63,378 nt of DNA from Bdellovibrionota bacterium (lineage in GTDB: Bacteria > Bdellovibrionota_C > UBA2361 > OMII01), in the NCBI GenBank assembly GCA_044337105.1, contig JBIIOE010000006.1, positions 1-63,378 on the forward strand, in the 5' to 3' direction. The notes beneath the pieces were generated by a model that saw nothing but the letters and a program-made list of their open reading frames with translations, made no database searches and had not been told where the DNA came from. Made by a program: the position numbers and the translations under genes. Of this stretch, positions 9,168 to 41,416 are shown piece by piece; the first letter of the stretch is position 1; every line of letters starts with the position of its first letter.

Positions 9168-9357
9168 CTAGGGAAGCGGGGCAAACCCCCTCCCTGCTGC
9201 AAAAGCGGATCTTGGGTTGCTCTTCAATTTTCGCGACATGGAAAAATCCTCAGTGGATCGCAGAGGATACACCTGCGGTTTTTCCACATCGCGAAAATCA
9301 AATATCAACCCAACCTCCACTTTCTCGCTACGGGTAGGTTTCGCCTCGATTCCCCAG
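9168..9357 (+). mobile_element. Full-length 190-bp palindromic MITE-like element (CTAG-ended family)
   Basis: Imperfect terminal inverted repeats CTAGGGAAGCGGGGCAAACC / GGTTTCGCCTCGATTCCCCAG. Nested stems TTGGGTTG/CAACCCAA and TTTTCGCGA/TCGCGAAAA. Near-identical inverted copy at 38803-38961. Confidence 0.8.
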
Positions 9358-27385: not shown

Positions 27386-27468
27386 TACCGGAGAAGGGAC
27401 TTGAACCCCCACACCCTCGCGAGTAGCGGATTTTGAATCCGCCGCGTCTACCATTCCGCCACTCCGGC
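27386..27468 (-). tRNA. tRNA-Leu (anticodon CAA), CCA not encoded
   Basis: Reverse complement GCCGGAGTGGCGGAATGGTAGACGCGGCGGATTCAAAATCCGC...GGTTCAAGTCCCTTCTCCGGTA forms a cloverleaf with a long variable arm. Confidence 0.96.
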
Positions 27469-27510: not shown

Positions 27511-28332
27511 TCAAGCATCCAAACCCTGATAGCAGGCACGATCTGCTGTTAAAGCAGCCTTGTCACCCTCCACAACCTCCCGAATACGCCCCTCCACCAT
27601 CTCTACCAGCGTTTCCGGAGAATGCTCCGATGGCTCGATAAGTGGCAAGAAGGTGAGATCAATCGATGATCCAACCACTACCGGAAAGAGATTGTGACGC
27701 AAGAGCTCCCAGTTACCTCTAATCGCTATGGGCTGGATCACTGCACTCGGCATCGTTCGAAGGAGGGCCTGAAGACCAGTTGCCTTAAACTTTTTCATCT
27801 TGCCGTCTCGAGCCCTGGTTCCCTCCGGGAAGATACATGCCACCTGCTTGACACGCTCCTTGTAGCTACCAAAATTCTCTATAGCGAGGATCGCCTTCTT
27901 AGCATCCTTGCGATCAATCAGAACCGAGCCCAGCCGCCGTAGCGCAAACGAGATACTCGGTATCCAACGCCCGAGCTCCTTCTTGGCGATAAAACCCAGT
28001 TCACGGTGACGGCACAGCCACATGATCATCGGAATGTCGTACATACTCTGATGATTAGCTACTACGATCACCGGTCGGTCCACAGGCCAGGACGGAGCGC
28101 CGCGAAAGGCGAATGACGCACCACCGAACAACCTGATGTTCCAGATGATACCCAAATTCATGAGATCCAGTGCTCGCTTCTGCATCCTCGGGCTAACCAG
28201 GGCAGCCAGCATCTGCGCGACGTGAAAAACCAAAAGCAGGCCGAAAAAAACGATGAGAAAAATGGGCGTCATCGACCAACTAAGCACACGTCGACACCCA
28301 ACACACGTATTATCCATCAAGGACTCCGTCAC
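27511..28332 (-). CDS. Lysophospholipid acyltransferase (PlsC family)
   Basis: NHQSMYD (HX4D), AKKEL, FPEGTR. Confidence 0.9.
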   Translation of the reverse strand: MTESLMDNTCVGCRRVLSWSMTPIFLIVFFGLLLVFHVAQMLAALVSPRMQKRALDLMNLGIIWNIRLFGGASFAFRGAPSWPVDRPVIVVANHQSMYDIPMIMWLCRHRELGFIAKKELGRWIPSISFALRRLGSVLIDRKDAKKAILAIENFGSYKERVKQVACIFPEGTRARDGKMKKFKATGLQALLRTMPSAVIQPIAIRGNWELLRHNLFPVVVGSSIDLTFLPLIEPSEHSPETLVEMVEGRIREVVEGDKAALTADRACYQGLDA

Positions 28333-28885: not shown

Positions 28886-29089
28886 GCATGCTCCTGGAGG
28901 ATGAGGGGAATCATCTCCGCATCAACCTCTACTACTCATTAGTGTCGAAGTTTTGGAACATTCGGGGGTATTTATCAAGGGCCGTGTATTTAGTTTCCTC
29001 CCGGACCTCGCAGTACCTGGTCAAGGTATCGAGAGCGGGATACTATGGAACAAGAAACTCGCTTGCCGCTTCCTGTAAAGTAGGTGTGT

Positions 29090-30061
29090 ATGGACAGAGT
29101 ATCGATAGCTGGCCTAGGGAGGCGAGGCGAACCCCCTCCCTGCTGCGAAAGCGGATATTGCCTTGCTTGCCTTGCATCCCTAGCGTTAGTCTGCATTTTT
29201 CTTCTGAGTGGTACAGGTTATTCCATGGTAGCCAATGCGGATGACTACATATCTCCCGAGCTCGTCAAGGTCACTACCCCGAAGTATACTGCCTCCCTCG
29301 ATCTCTTCCGGCCCCGCTTCGGTACGTACGAATACACGGTAAGTTGGGAAGGAATCCCAGCGGCCTCCTGCTCACTTACGTTCAAACAGGAAACGGACTA
29401 CTACATCGTCGAGACGGCTGCCCGCACCTACAGCGGCGTGGATCTGCTTTACAAGTTACGGTACAACGCGGTCGGAATTCTTGCGAAAGACGACCTGACA
29501 TCGATCAAGTTGATGATTGATCACCGCGAGAATTCCCGACACAAGCACGTGACGATCGACTTTCTACCGGAAGCTGGGCGTATATCCGCCGTGCGAGGGA
29601 GAGGCGACGACGATCCACACAAAGCAACCGTTTCTTTTGTGCCGCACAATTTCACACTCGATCCAATCGGAGCAGCCTTCATAGCCCGAGCTCTTCCGTG
29701 GAAGACTGGGGAAACAAAAACCTTTGATGTATTCAACGGAAAGAGTCGCTACTATATTCAGTTGACCGCTGTACGACGTGAAACGATCCGTCACAATGGA
29801 GAGGATAAAAAAGTCATCGTCATAACTCCACAGGTGCGTAATTTGACAACAGCGAAGCCTGTTTCGAAACTCCGTGAGGCTTTCATTTACGTTACTGACG
29901 ATCCTCAGCGCGAGGTCTTGAAGATCGTCAGCTCTGTCTTCATTGGCAGCGTGACGACCTCTCTCGAATCCTTTACTCCACTCGCTGCTGAAACCAACAC
30001 GCCTGCCCGAGCCGCTCAGGCCGCCCCTTCCGGTGACGCTGCGGCAAGCGCACCTCTGTAA
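29090..30061 (+). CDS. DUF3108 family exported protein, with a MITE-interrupted signal peptide
   Basis: YTVSWEGIPAA, TLDPIGAAF..R, FDVFNGK.Y, IYVTDD..R..LKI pattern. ATG 29090 has an AGGT RBS. Confidence 0.75.
   Translation: MDRVSIAGLGRRGEPPPCCESGYCLACLASLALVCIFLLSGTGYSMVANADDYISPELVKVTTPKYTASLDLFRPRFGTYEYTVSWEGIPAASCSLTFKQETDYYIVETAARTYSGVDLLYKLRYNAVGILAKDDLTSIKLMIDHRENSRHKHVTIDFLPEAGRISAVRGRGDDDPHKATVSFVPHNFTLDPIGAAFIARALPWKTGETKTFDVFNGKSRYYIQLTAVRRETIRHNGEDKKVIVITPQVRNLTTAKPVSKLREAFIYVTDDPQREVLKIVSSVFIGSVTTSLESFTPLAAETNTPARAAQAAPSGDAAASAPL
29114..29183 (+). mobile_element. 70-bp miniature CTAG element inserted in frame in a CDS
   Basis: CTAGGGAGGCGAGGCGA...TTGCCTTGCATCCCTAG inverted ends, CTAG at both 29114 and 29180. 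Shares CCCCCTCCCTGCTGC.AAAGCGGAT with the 9168 element. Confidence 0.85.
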
Positions 30062-33970: not shown

Positions 33971-34033
33971 TAAGGAATCAAGGCAGAACCCCTCGCTGCT
34001 ACGAAAGAGGAGGTTTTACCTCGCTTGCCTAAG
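33971..34033 (+). repeat. Degenerate short copy of the CTAG MITE family
   Basis: TAAGGAATCAAGGCAGAACCCCTCGCTGCTACGAAAG...TTTTACCTCGCTTGCCTAAG has both ends recognisable and a size similar to the 29114 copy. Confidence 0.55.
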
Positions 34034-38783: not shown

Positions 38784-38802
38784 ACATCATCCTCTAAGCG
38801 TC

Positions 38803-38961
38803 GCGAGAAAGTGGAGGTTGGGTTGATATTCGATTTTCGCGATGTGGAAAAACCGCAGGTGTATCCTCTGCGATACACTGAGGATTTTTCCATGTCGCGA
38901 AAGTCGGAGAGCAACCCAAGATCCGCTTTCGCAGCAGGGAGGGGTTTTGCCGAGCTTCCCT
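38803..38961 (-). mobile_element. Near full-length inverted copy of the CTAG MITE
   Basis: Reverse complement of about 9170-9328, including the central hairpin GGAAAAATCCTCAGTG.ATCGCAGAGGATACACCTGCGGTTTTTCC. Confidence 0.85.
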
Positions 38962-40654: not shown

Positions 40655-41282
40655 CTGCTTGATTCCTCTTTCTAAGAGCAGCTAAATTCCAACCAACAGC
40701 GACAACACGTCGCTGCTTGAGTACCTTCGGGCACTCTCTGCAGTTTCCGTGATCGGTGTAAAACCTTGCTACACAGGCTGCTTCTCGTGAGCCTGGATAT
40801 GAGATCGCAAGTTCAAGAGAAGCAGTGTGCTCTTCCTCTACTCAGATGTAATTGTCGAAACACAACGCAGATAGGCTACCGACCAACCGACTAGGCAATT
40901 CGATACTGTGCGCGTTGTCTAGTGTAGCTGCTCTACTCTCGCTAACGAAGTGTCGCGTAGAAGAATGTGGGAGACTAAGATCGACTAGACCCGACAGCTG
41001 CCGATACATTGCTACATAGTAGCCCAGGATAGCTTGGAAATGACGTAGCCTGCATCTGCACCAAGGACGGTATGGCTATAGTGATGTGCAAAAATCCGCC
41101 CCAGTAAAACTGCCAAGGCTTTTGCTTCCATCACTATAGGTTGTTGTTGTGATTCGCACCCGCGAATCGATAGCTTGCTCGAGAGGATTGAGGGTTTATG
41201 ACCTCTCATCAAACGGTCTGCTTATGTAGCTGCCTGAAGCTGTAAGTTTGGGATGGGAAATGGGCCCTCACCGACGAAAATA

Positions 41283-41416
41283 AGGTAAACACCCTCCCTG
41301 GTGCGAAAGCGGATCTTGGATTGCTCTCCGATTTTAGCGATGTGAAAAGAATCGAATATCGACCCAACCCCCCTTTCTCGCTAGTGGCGGGCTTCCCCTC
41401 GCTTCCCTAGGGAAGC
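41283..41416 (+). mobile_element. Internally deleted copy of the CTAG MITE, followed by the start of another end motif
   Basis: Both arms present (CCCTCCCTGGTGCGAAAGCGGATCTTGG...; ...CCCAACCCCCCTTTCTCGCTA...CCTCGCTTCCCTAG-GGAAGC). Central hairpin missing. Confidence 0.8.

What the first reader, a model, noticed from the sequence alone, without database searches (positions are those of the whole stretch)
29114..29183. Miniature element inserted in frame inside a signal peptide, with target duplication
Seen: CTAG at 29114-29117 and 29180-29183 flanks a short two-ended MITE copy. Removing it with one CTAG deletes exactly 66 nt (22 codons, LGRRGEPPPCCESGYCLACLAS) and restores MDRVSIAGLALVCIFLLSGTGYSMVANA-DD, a typical Sec signal peptide ending in A-N-A. 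With the insert the ORF remains open, and the element's CLACLASLA end rebuilds a hydrophobic core. Established: in-frame palindromic inserts in proteins are known from Rickettsia RPEs. Inference: direct evidence of mobility and CTAG targeting, and of repeat-derived peptide recruitment (four new Cys) in an export signal. Precise excision could act as a switch.
Basis: partly seen in the sequence, partly recalled or inferred. Interest (0 to 1): 0.75.

Follow-up and report, generated by a model that had tools for sequence, protein, structure and literature searches.

The report
Mobile repeat inserted inside a signal peptide
A 62-base copy of a small mobile repeat landed in frame inside the export signal of a lake bacterium's secreted protein; the gene stays intact, and this is a clean new example of a phenomenon already known from Rickettsia and other bacteria.

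Summary
CTAG at 29114-29117 and 29180-29183 flanks a 62-bp element. It is a short derivative (53-bp form plus a 9-bp tandem duplication) of a 182-bp, nearly palindromic MITE. The MITE has 252 loci in this Bdellovibrionota MAG and occurs in 24 of 34 other genomes of the genus searched.

Flanks are YTAR at 126 of 270 ends, against 0.58% of genome tetranucleotides. They are direct duplications, as for IS5.

All 17 same-genus orthologues whose N-termini I read, plus one named MAG, lack the 22 residues. The two closest show a clean 66-nt gap, with the ATG and upstream AGGTG conserved. No canonical start lies between the element and the hydrophobic core, so the element must be translated for export.

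Only one of six orientation/phase settings of the consensus is stop-free. It is used here and by two further verified in-frame inserts: a lipoprotein signal peptide and the only ilvD gene.

The mature protein shows dN/dS about 0.04-0.05 and no rate acceleration. The insertion allele is identical in an independent sample. No empty allele was seen, so a switch by excision has no support.

Verdict: a real, tolerated in-frame MITE insertion and a new member of a known kind, of moderate interest.

The parts
29090..30061 (+). DUF3108-family precursor gene (323 codons plus stop) that reads through the element
   Evidence: ORF. Pfam PF11306 DUF3108, E 8e-29, residues 81-292. The ATG at 29090 aligns with the start of the two closest orthologues.
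29082..29086 (+). AGGTG, a Shine-Dalgarno-like motif 3 nt before the ATG; its function is inferred
   Evidence: Sequence. The block (A/G)AG(T/C)AGGT(G/A)T is conserved before the start in G015, G021 and L060.
29090..29239 (+). Signal peptide including the insert (50 codons). Predicted cleavage is after A-N-A, before the conserved mature N-terminus DDYISPELVK.
   Evidence: The 5 orthologue leaders scored are 27-28 residues and end A-K-A or A-N-A before DDYISP; each of the other 12 read also ends in A before DDYI. No SignalP was available, so the call is by inspection and hydropathy only.
29114..29117 (.). Left copy of the target-site duplication, CTAG
   Evidence: Relatives carry a single xTAG here: CATAG, TATAG, CGTAG.
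29118..29179 (+). 62-bp short-form MITE. The 5' inverted repeat starts at 29118 and the 3' inverted repeat ends at 29179. It sits in the one orientation and phase that has no stop.
   Evidence: nhmmer hit C64:29118-29167, model positions 1-50. Two-ended call with CTAG/CTAG flanks. Alignment with three other short copies. As RNA it folds into a hairpin of -33.3 kcal/mol, z -2.59.
29158..29175 (+). 9-bp tandem duplication (two units of TTGCCTTGC) inside the 3' inverted repeat. It adds 3 codons.
   Evidence: Sequence.
29180..29183 (.). Right copy of the target-site duplication, CTAG
   Evidence: The 66-nt gap in G015 and G021 covers the element plus one CTAG.
9172..9353 (+). Full-length 182-bp copy of the same family elsewhere in the window
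   Evidence: nhmmer, model positions 1-182, E 7e-58. Sequence.
38796..38959 (-). Copy of the family truncated at its 3' end (model positions 1-164)
33974..34028 (+). 55-bp short-form copy, flanks GTAA/CTAA
41276..41406 (+). 131-bp internally deleted copy

Best explanation
A non-autonomous DNA transposon (MITE) inserted at a CTAG inside codons 9-10 of a DUF3108 precursor gene. The copy is the short form of a genus-wide 182-bp palindromic family and duplicates a 4-bp YTAR target, as IS5-type transposases do.

The CTAG was read as CTA-G (Leu plus G), and the element sits in its only stop-free orientation. Element plus duplication is 66 nt. The gene therefore stayed open, and the ribosome now translates 22 extra residues between the short N-terminal region and the hydrophobic core of the Sec signal peptide.

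The core (LALVCIFLL), the A-N-A cleavage site and the mature protein are untouched. The element's last codons (CLACLAS) lengthen the core. The leader is removed on export, so the insert is probably nearly neutral and was simply tolerated.

Shown: the insertion, the duplication, the empty site in relatives, the family, the obligatory read-through, and continued constraint on the mature protein.
Inferred: that the 50-residue leader still directs export and is cleaved, and that the transposase is of the IS5 type and acts in trans. No parent element was found.
For: Family and ends:
- 252 loci, of which 45 are two-ended copies of 170-195 bp.
- Outer flanks are YTAR at 126 of 270 ends, against 0.58% of genome tetranucleotides.
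- Among copies with a non-palindromic YTAR on the left and a YTAR on the right, 9 are direct, 0 inverted and 2 other. The 4 bp are therefore a duplication, not part of the inverted repeat.
- The IS5 duplication motif 5'-YTAR-3' is in print (PMC5009759, passages of sections 16-17).

Empty site:
- 17 of 17 same-genus orthologue N-termini that I read lack the 22 residues, as does L060.
- The DNA alignment shows a clean 66-nt gap in G015 and G021, with the ATG and upstream motif conserved.

Read-through:
- There is no in-frame ATG, GTG or TTG between the element and the core. The next one is the M of SMVANA.

Permissive setting:
- Only 1 of 6 orientation/phase settings of the consensus has no stop.
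- It is used here, in a lipoprotein leader (89+4 nt) and in ilvD (182+4 nt, TSD CTAA).

Constraint:
- The mature part is 273 codons in all four close orthologues, with dN/dS 0.041-0.046.
- dN to the outgroup L032 is 0.108 for G000 and 0.104 for L060.

Not an assembly artefact:
- A contig of a second sample (X3, record 10) bridges 28990-29628 with 0 differences.

Hydropathy:
- The best 10-residue window scores 3.02 with the insert and 3.06 without it.
Against: - Export was not tested and no signal-peptide predictor was available.
- The leader is 50 residues, against 27-28 in the 5 relatives whose leaders I scored.
- By my reading of the sequence, the stretch before the core now has zero net charge, with a Glu four residues before the hydrophobic run. 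It also holds three consecutive Pro.
- The hydrophobic run grows from about 12 to about 16 residues. From recall, that can favour a signal-anchor over a cleaved leader.
- An RNA hairpin of -33.3 kcal/mol begins about 20 nt after the ATG and could lower translation.
- The dN/dS figure averages over a long period (dS is saturated at 1.7-2.4), most of which may precede the insertion.
- No autonomous element with these ends was found: 5 PF01609 hits in G000 and 12 in five relatives, none with the end motif, and 0 PF13546 hits.
- Only 21 of 96 two-ended copies keep identical flanks.
Confidence: 0.78

Rival explanations
1. The insertion is real, but it cripples the leader. The protein is then poorly exported, left membrane-anchored or not made, and the gene is on its way to loss.
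For: - The leader is 50 residues, against 27-28 in the 5 relatives whose leaders I scored.
- By my reading, acidic and Pro residues lie just before the core, and the net charge before the core is zero.
- A stable hairpin lies close to the start codon.
- The insertion has not been dated, so dN/dS cannot speak for the time since it happened.
Against: - The ORF is intact over 323 codons, and the mature part is exactly 273 codons, as in three relatives.
- There is no excess non-synonymous change in this lineage: dN 0.108 against 0.104 to the same outgroup.
- The copy differs from the other short copies at several positions and carries its own 9-bp duplication. It is therefore not brand new, yet the frame has stayed open.
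- The core and cleavage site are unchanged.
- A second leader in the genome tolerates the same kind of insert.
Confidence: 0.13
2. The element is a reversible switch. Precise excision and re-insertion toggle the leader between a long and a short form, and thereby the protein's export or level.
For: - Intact identical CTAG repeats flank the element.
- Elements that target YTAR have been reported to excise precisely in Xanthomonas oryzae (bioRxiv 10.1101/2023.04.27.538605, passages of the Results and Discussion).
Against: - Both forms are in frame, so nothing is turned off by the frame.
- No joint skipping the element appears in the contigs of 4 of 4 runs, and the filled allele is identical in X1 and X3. 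Contigs drop rare variants, so this is weak evidence.
- No transposase with matching ends was found in the assembly.
- The copy has diverged and carries a duplication in one inverted repeat, which should hamper recognition by a transposase.
Confidence: 0.04
3. Translation starts downstream of the element, so the element is only 5' leader RNA and the open frame across it is chance.
For: - One in three insertions of any length keeps the frame by chance.
- In another copy (C188) the open frame across the element is indeed only apparent, and the true GTG start lies downstream.
Against: - The only in-frame canonical start after the element is the ATG at 29225. It lies after the whole hydrophobic core and would give a protein with no leader.
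- All 17 orthologues read have a leader of normal length, and the ATG at 29090 with its upstream motif aligns with theirs.
Confidence: 0.03
4. The repeat is not a DDE-transposon derivative. It is a REP/REPIN-like palindrome moved by a tyrosine (Y1, RAYT-type) transposase.
For: - The whole 182-bp unit is nearly palindromic: 140 of 182 positions equal its reverse complement.
- One ORF with a weak Y1_Tnp match (25.6 bits) lies between two end-like motifs 2.8 kb apart on C11.
Against: - The filled sites show a direct 4-bp duplication where relatives show a single copy of the site. From recall, Y1 transposases make no duplication.
- The two motifs near the Y1 gene are 0.8-1 kb from it, with other genes in between.
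Confidence: 0.04

Closest known systems
Rickettsia palindromic elements (RPEs)
   Same: - Short palindromic repeats that sit in frame inside unrelated protein genes.
- They encode a conserved peptide and leave the host ORF open (PMC10969869 section 4.2, passages; table and section 15 of PMC3184786, passages).
- Here the same peptide, beginning L-G-(K/R)-R-G, appears in three genes.
   Different: - Different phylum and a free-living lake bacterium.
- This family has clear terminal inverted repeats and a 4-bp YTAR duplication.
- Most of its 252 loci were not shown to be in genes: 3 are verified in-frame inserts.
- No sequence comparison with RPEs was possible, because none was on hand.
IS5-type insertion sequences and the MITEs derived from them
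   Same: - 4-bp target duplication with the motif YTAR (PMC5009759, passages; here).
- Ends beginning GGAAG. The likeness to the IS5 ends is recalled, not tested.
   Different: - No transposase gene lies inside the element.
- No parent element with these ends was found in this assembly or in five relatives.
- The unit is palindromic along its whole length, not only at its tips.
Other bacterial MITEs fused in frame to genes (Coxiella QMITE2, ERIC, BOX, Anabaena MITEs)
   Same: In-frame insertion in the middle or at an end of annotated ORFs, adding residues (PMC5896051 Discussion, passages; PMC10969869).
   Different: I found no printed case placed inside a signal peptide. 'Signal' occurs 0 times in the main text of both PMC10969869 and PMC5896051, and searches gave none. 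Only the listings of those searches, plus passages of PMC3119063 and PMC5771137, were read.
Naturally extended signal peptides (e.g. the N-terminal extension of some autotransporter leaders; recalled, not checked here)
   Same: A long N-terminal stretch precedes an otherwise ordinary positive/hydrophobic/cleavage-site leader.
   Different: Those extensions are conserved and thought to be functional. This one is a lineage-specific piece of a transposon, absent from all 18 relatives read (17 same-genus orthologues plus L060).

Membership tests
MITE (miniature inverted-repeat transposable element) | Short, with no room for a transposase gene | tested here: met
   The full form is 182 bp and the window copy 62 bp.
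MITE (miniature inverted-repeat transposable element) | Terminal inverted repeats | tested here: met
   The two ends are reverse complements over about 17 nt and more. The window copy folds end to end.
MITE (miniature inverted-repeat transposable element) | Target-site duplication, shown by filled versus empty sites | tested here: met
   - DUF3108: two CTAG here, one xTAG in G015, G021 and L060.
- ilvD: two CTAA here, one 4-mer in five relatives.
- Direct versus inverted flank test: 9 to 0.
MITE (miniature inverted-repeat transposable element) | Many dispersed copies | tested here: met
   252 loci in G000. Matches in 24 of 34 other genomes of the genus.
IS5-family derivative | 4-bp duplication of a YTAR target | tested here: met
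   126 of 270 flanks are YTAR, against 0.58% of the genome background. The motif for IS5 is in PMC5009759.
IS5-family derivative | Inverted repeats shared with an autonomous element that encodes an IS5-type DDE transposase | tested here: inconclusive
   None of 5 PF01609 loci in G000 or 12 in five relatives has the 17-nt end motif in a position to bound the gene, at up to 4 mismatches. These are fragmented MAGs, in which repeats often fail to assemble.
Rickettsia palindromic element family | Sequence relatedness to RPE families of Rickettsia | not tested
The likeness is functional only.
Sec (type I) signal peptide | Positive N-region, hydrophobic core, small residues at -3 and -1 before the cleavage site | tested here: inconclusive
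   The core and A-N-A are present and conserved. With the insert, the N-region is 23 residues with zero net charge (my count). No predictor or experiment was available.
Rfam RNA families | Match to a curated RNA family at its gathering score | tested here: not met
   The only match in the window is a tRNA at 27386-27468.

The most novel reading that the evidence does not exclude
This MITE family is pre-adapted to survive inside Leu-rich N-terminal leaders.
- Several of its common sizes plus the 4-bp duplication are multiples of three: 182, 89, 62 and 53 bp.
- It has one fully open frame, which needs a YTA Leu codon followed by a purine. That is the Leu-Ala type of dipeptide typical of signal-peptide cores.
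- Its last codons encode Arg plus a hydrophobic run (R-F-C-L-A-S-L), which rebuilds a positive-then-hydrophobic leader when it splits one.

If so, the family would be a recurrent, genus-wide source of signal-peptide remodelling in these bacteria, and occasionally of new start codons. It would not just be an occasional passenger.
Probability: 0.15. Interest if true: 0.55.

Novelty: new member of a known kind. Interest (0 to 1): 0.35.

Why it matters
- It is a clean natural case with filled and empty sites. It shows that a signal peptide can absorb 22 transposon-encoded residues (31 in a second case) while the gene stays under constraint.
- That is useful as a natural test of how tolerant Sec and lipoprotein leaders are.
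- It also warns annotators: gene callers may place the start after such an element and so lose the leader.
- It documents a repeat family in uncultured freshwater Bdellovibrionota that the one literature search made did not find described.
- The family behaves like the Rickettsia RPEs, but has clear IS5-like hallmarks. This links 'selfish DNA inside proteins' to an ordinary cut-and-paste mechanism.
- It does not open a new kind of biology.

Tried and rejected
- **Parent transposon.** PF01609 in G000 gave 5 hits, none bounded by the end motif. The IS5/DUF4096 fragment on C72 lacks the motif. PF13546 gave 0 hits. PF01609 in G048, G011, G015, G021 and G019 gave 12 hits, none with the motif in place. 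End pairs 841-2833 bp apart hold ordinary genes: a 399-aa protein without a Pfam hit, an H-NOX/histidine kinase pair, a response regulator, and a weak Y1_Tnp.
- **Empty allele in the population.** No joint across the element appears in the contigs of X1, X3, X4 and X5. Only contigs were laid, no raw reads.
- **Empty-junction string.** I did not search for it, because it is a joined sequence.
- **Metagenome scan with the protein.** 66 pattern matches, 0 relatives.
- **Exact look-up of the protein in the public collection.** It is not there with either start. The look-up with the downstream start could not be made.
- **Further in-frame candidates.** C188 was rejected: the orthologue's leader matches a GTG start after the element. 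Three open frames in G011 contain the MITE peptide. In two (on C60 and C9) the element lies upstream of the true start. The third (C54) has it at the gene's 3' end. Most of the 71 long open frames across copies look non-coding on inspection. I did not test them one by one.
- **Tat leader.** R-R is present, but the following residues (G-E-P) do not fit the motif as I recall it.
- **Lipoprotein box in the DUF3108 leader.** None fits, and one orthologue has no Cys.
- **Hydrophobic-span figure.** The figure merges two separate stretches in the insert-bearing forms and should be ignored.
- The comparison was then made by reference.

Full report
**1. The observation**

One search shows CTAG at 29114-29117 and again at 29180-29183, with 62 nt between them. 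The only long ORF on that stretch (29084/29090..30061, + strand) reads straight through. Its product is a DUF3108 protein (PF11306, E 8e-29).

Element plus one CTAG is 66 nt, or 22 codons.

The element is not a chance palindrome:
- A 27-nt piece finds a second copy in the window, where 0 are expected in 100 shuffles.
- A 101-nt stretch around it (29100-29200) gives 42 matches in the genome at E<=0.001.
- blastn-short gives 82 hits.

**2. What the element is**

Long copies define a 182-bp unit. Its consensus equals its own reverse complement at 140 of 182 positions, so the whole unit is a hairpin and not only its tips.

Merging the nhmmer hits of a full-length model and an end model gives 252 distinct loci, 21,275 bp in all. 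Of 96 copies for which both ends could be placed, 45 are 170-195 bp, and about 30 are short forms of 43-65 bp.

The four bases outside the ends are CTAG (64), TTAG (31), CTAA (25) or TTAA (6). That is 126 of 270 ends, while YTAR makes up 0.58% of the genome's tetranucleotides.

CTAG is its own reverse complement and cannot say whether the four bases are a duplication or part of the inverted repeat. The non-palindromic cases can: 9 are direct, 0 inverted and 2 other.

Only 21 of 96 copies keep identical flanks (14 of the 45 long ones). Many of the others differ by one base, so much of the family is old.

A 4-bp duplication of YTAR is the printed hallmark of IS5 (PMC5009759, passages of sections 16-17).

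The window copy is a short form. Aligned by reference with three other short copies, it is 9 nt longer in the 3' inverted repeat. The sequence shows this as a tandem repeat of a 9-mer at 29158-29166 and 29167-29175. As RNA it folds end to end at -33.3 kcal/mol, z -2.59, with 3 of 200 shuffles folding as well. No Rfam family matches any copy in the window.

**3. Is it an insertion into the gene?**

The protein has a match in 39 of 41 genomes searched, counting G000, and in 23 of 24 others of the genus. I read the N-termini of 17 of the 19 orthologue loci fetched. My pattern missed L040 and L046.

All 17 have an ordinary short hydrophobic leader (27-28 residues in the 5 I scored), then A-x-A or a similar small-residue site, then the conserved mature N-terminus DDYI(S/A/P)P. 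None has the 22 residues. A named Bdellovibrionota lake MAG (L060, 85% identity in the best tblastn segment; 87% over the mature part) also lacks them.

The nucleotide alignment with the two closest relatives (G015 81%, G021 79%) has a single clean 66-nt gap, exactly the element plus one CTAG. The ATG and the AGGT-containing block before it stay aligned. The site reads CATAG, TATAG and CGTAG in the three relatives, which is one xTAG where G000 has two CTAG.

Orthologues do not carry the segment. There is also no in-frame ATG, GTG or TTG between the element and the hydrophobic core. The next start is the ATG at 29225, inside S-M-V-A-N-A, and it would give a protein with no leader.

The contig is not a misassembly. 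A contig of another sample (X3, record 10) covers 28990-29628 with no difference, and X4 record 19 covers 29107-29332.

**4. Why the gene survived**

I translated the consensus with its duplication in both orientations and all three phases. Only one setting is free of stops: forward orientation, with the target read as YTA-R (Leu, then a codon starting with a purine). It gives L-G-K-R-G-K-T-P-P-C-C-E-S-G-S-W ... A-T-G-R-F-C-L-A-S-L. One phase (xxY-TAR) cannot occur inside a gene, so this is one of four possible settings.

The DUF3108 insert uses it. A screen of all 252 loci for open frames of 150 codons or more across the element gave 71 frames. On inspection most looked non-coding. I followed up four.

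- **ilvD, verified.** A full-length copy (182+4 = 186 nt, 62 codons, duplication CTAA) sits inside the only ILVD_EDD gene of the assembly, C215:4444-6168. It splits the Pfam N-domain at position 253. In ten other genomes the two halves are contiguous. G015 matches at 94% and 88% identity. Five of these were aligned at the site and show one 4-mer. The gene was matched in only 9 of 15 genus genomes searched, so it may be dispensable.
- **Lipoprotein leader, verified.** An 89-bp copy (89+4 = 93 nt, flanks CTGG/TTGG) sits in a lipoprotein-type leader on C133. It reads M-L-R-A-L-Q-C-V-L-[31 residues]-A-M-G-L-L-L-S-G-C. The only clear orthologue (G015, 39% identity) has R-A-L-Q followed by the same 12 residues up to the Cys, without a gap. 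Here the element's R-S-R-F-C-F-A-S-L tail supplies the positive charge and half of the new core.
- **C188, rejected.** The orthologue's leader fits a GTG start after the element.
- **C2 metalloprotease, unresolved.** The start codon may lie inside the element.

All three verified inserts use the single open setting, which is what a filter by selection predicts. Two of the three are in leaders. With n=3, and the first being the seed, this is only a hint. It fits two simple ideas. Leaders are cut off and tolerate change. Leu followed by Ala or Gly is common in their cores, which offers the required in-phase target.

**5. Is the DUF3108 gene still working?**

Evidence that it is:
- The mature part is 273 codons in G000, L060, G015 and G021.
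- dN/dS is 0.041-0.046, with dS saturated.
- dN to G015 is 0.108 for G000 and 0.104 for L060, so there is no acceleration in this lineage.
- The best 10-residue hydropathy window is unchanged, at 3.02 against 3.06.
- The cleavage site is untouched.

Evidence against, or open:
- The leader is 50 residues.
- By my count, the 23 residues before the core have zero net charge, with Glu and three Pro close to the core.
- The hairpin begins about 20 nt after the ATG.
- I had no predictor and no expression data.

I therefore put export with cleavage as likely but unproven.

**6. Mobility and the 'switch'**

The family is in 24 of 34 other genomes of the genus, so it is old and genus-wide. I found no parent element. 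These are fragmented MAGs, so this says little.

No empty-site joint appeared in the contigs of four runs, and contigs hide rare variants. Precise excision of YTAR-targeting elements is reported in Xanthomonas (bioRxiv 10.1101/2023.04.27.538605, passages), so the idea is not absurd. But both forms are in frame, the copy has a damaged inverted repeat, and nothing here supports it.

**7. What is known**

The 2024 review says in-frame fusions by intragenic MITEs are 'not unusual' and describes the RPEs of Rickettsia (PMC10969869, section 4.2, passages). Delihas 2011 lists repeats fused inside protein genes (PMC3184786, section 15, passages). Coxiella QMITE2 sits in frame in some ORFs (PMC5896051, Discussion, passages).

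I found no printed case inside a signal peptide in searches. I read listings only, plus passages of PMC3119063 and PMC5771137. One search gave no MITE paper for Bdellovibrio-like bacteria: one unrelated preprint, seen as a listing only. These searches cover open-access text only.

**8. Verdict**

This is a real, well-documented in-frame MITE insertion in a signal peptide. It belongs to an IS5-like, RPE-like repeat family that the one search made did not find described. It is a new member of a known kind, and the mechanism is ordinary transposition followed by selection for the one open setting. Interest is moderate.

Noticed in passing
G000:C215:5276-5457 (locus L023/L063), outside the window: A full-length 182-bp copy plus CTAA duplication (62 codons) lies in frame inside the only ilvD/edd-family gene of the assembly. 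It splits the Pfam N-domain. Ten other genomes have the two halves contiguous.
   Followed up: yes
G000:C133:2809-2897 (locus L071 1010-1098, minus strand): An 89-bp copy lies in frame (31 codons with its flank) inside a lipoprotein-type signal peptide. The element's Arg-plus-hydrophobic tail rebuilds the core before the L-S-G-C box. The G015 orthologue aligns without the insert.
   Followed up: yes
G000:C2:17120-17208 (locus L072): An 89-bp copy lies directly before the signal-peptide core of a zinc metalloprotease (HEIGH motif). The first in-frame ATG close to the core lies inside the element, so the element may supply the start codon. Orthologue N-termini differ too much to decide.
   Followed up: partly
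G000: C206:2615-2800, C215:23930-24116, C38:14579-14764, C30:12553-12738 and about 20 more: A second repeat family of about 186 bp has copies 96-99% identical, which suggests recent activity. Its ends are different (TA-flanked, GAACTGGTCTC...), but it shares a 42-nt central core with the first family. Several contigs end inside it. In two loci its end abuts a signal-peptide core.
   Followed up: partly
G000:C65:2552-2798 and G000:C133:6924-7161: Two copies of the family lie head to tail and share one CTAG-like junction, as if the duplicated target of one copy was hit again.
   Followed up: no
window 9172-9353, 33974-34028, 38796-38959, 41276-41406: The window holds four more copies of the family: one full-length, one 55-bp short form, one truncated and one 131-bp form.
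   Followed up: partly
genome-wide flanks: Decayed flanks are mostly CCAG (14), CTGG (9) and CTCG (7). These look like single changes of the central TA of CTAG.
   Followed up: no
window 27386-27468 (-): A tRNA gene lies 1.6 kb upstream of the DUF3108 gene, next to a PlsC-like acyltransferase ORF (27511-28332, minus strand). The acyltransferase motif was recognised by eye only.
   Followed up: no
G000:C11:11137-12135 (locus L053 1038-2036, minus strand): A 332-aa ORF has a weak IS200-like Y1 transposase match (25.6 bits). It lies between two end-like motifs of the MITE, 2.8 kb apart, with other genes in between.
   Followed up: partly
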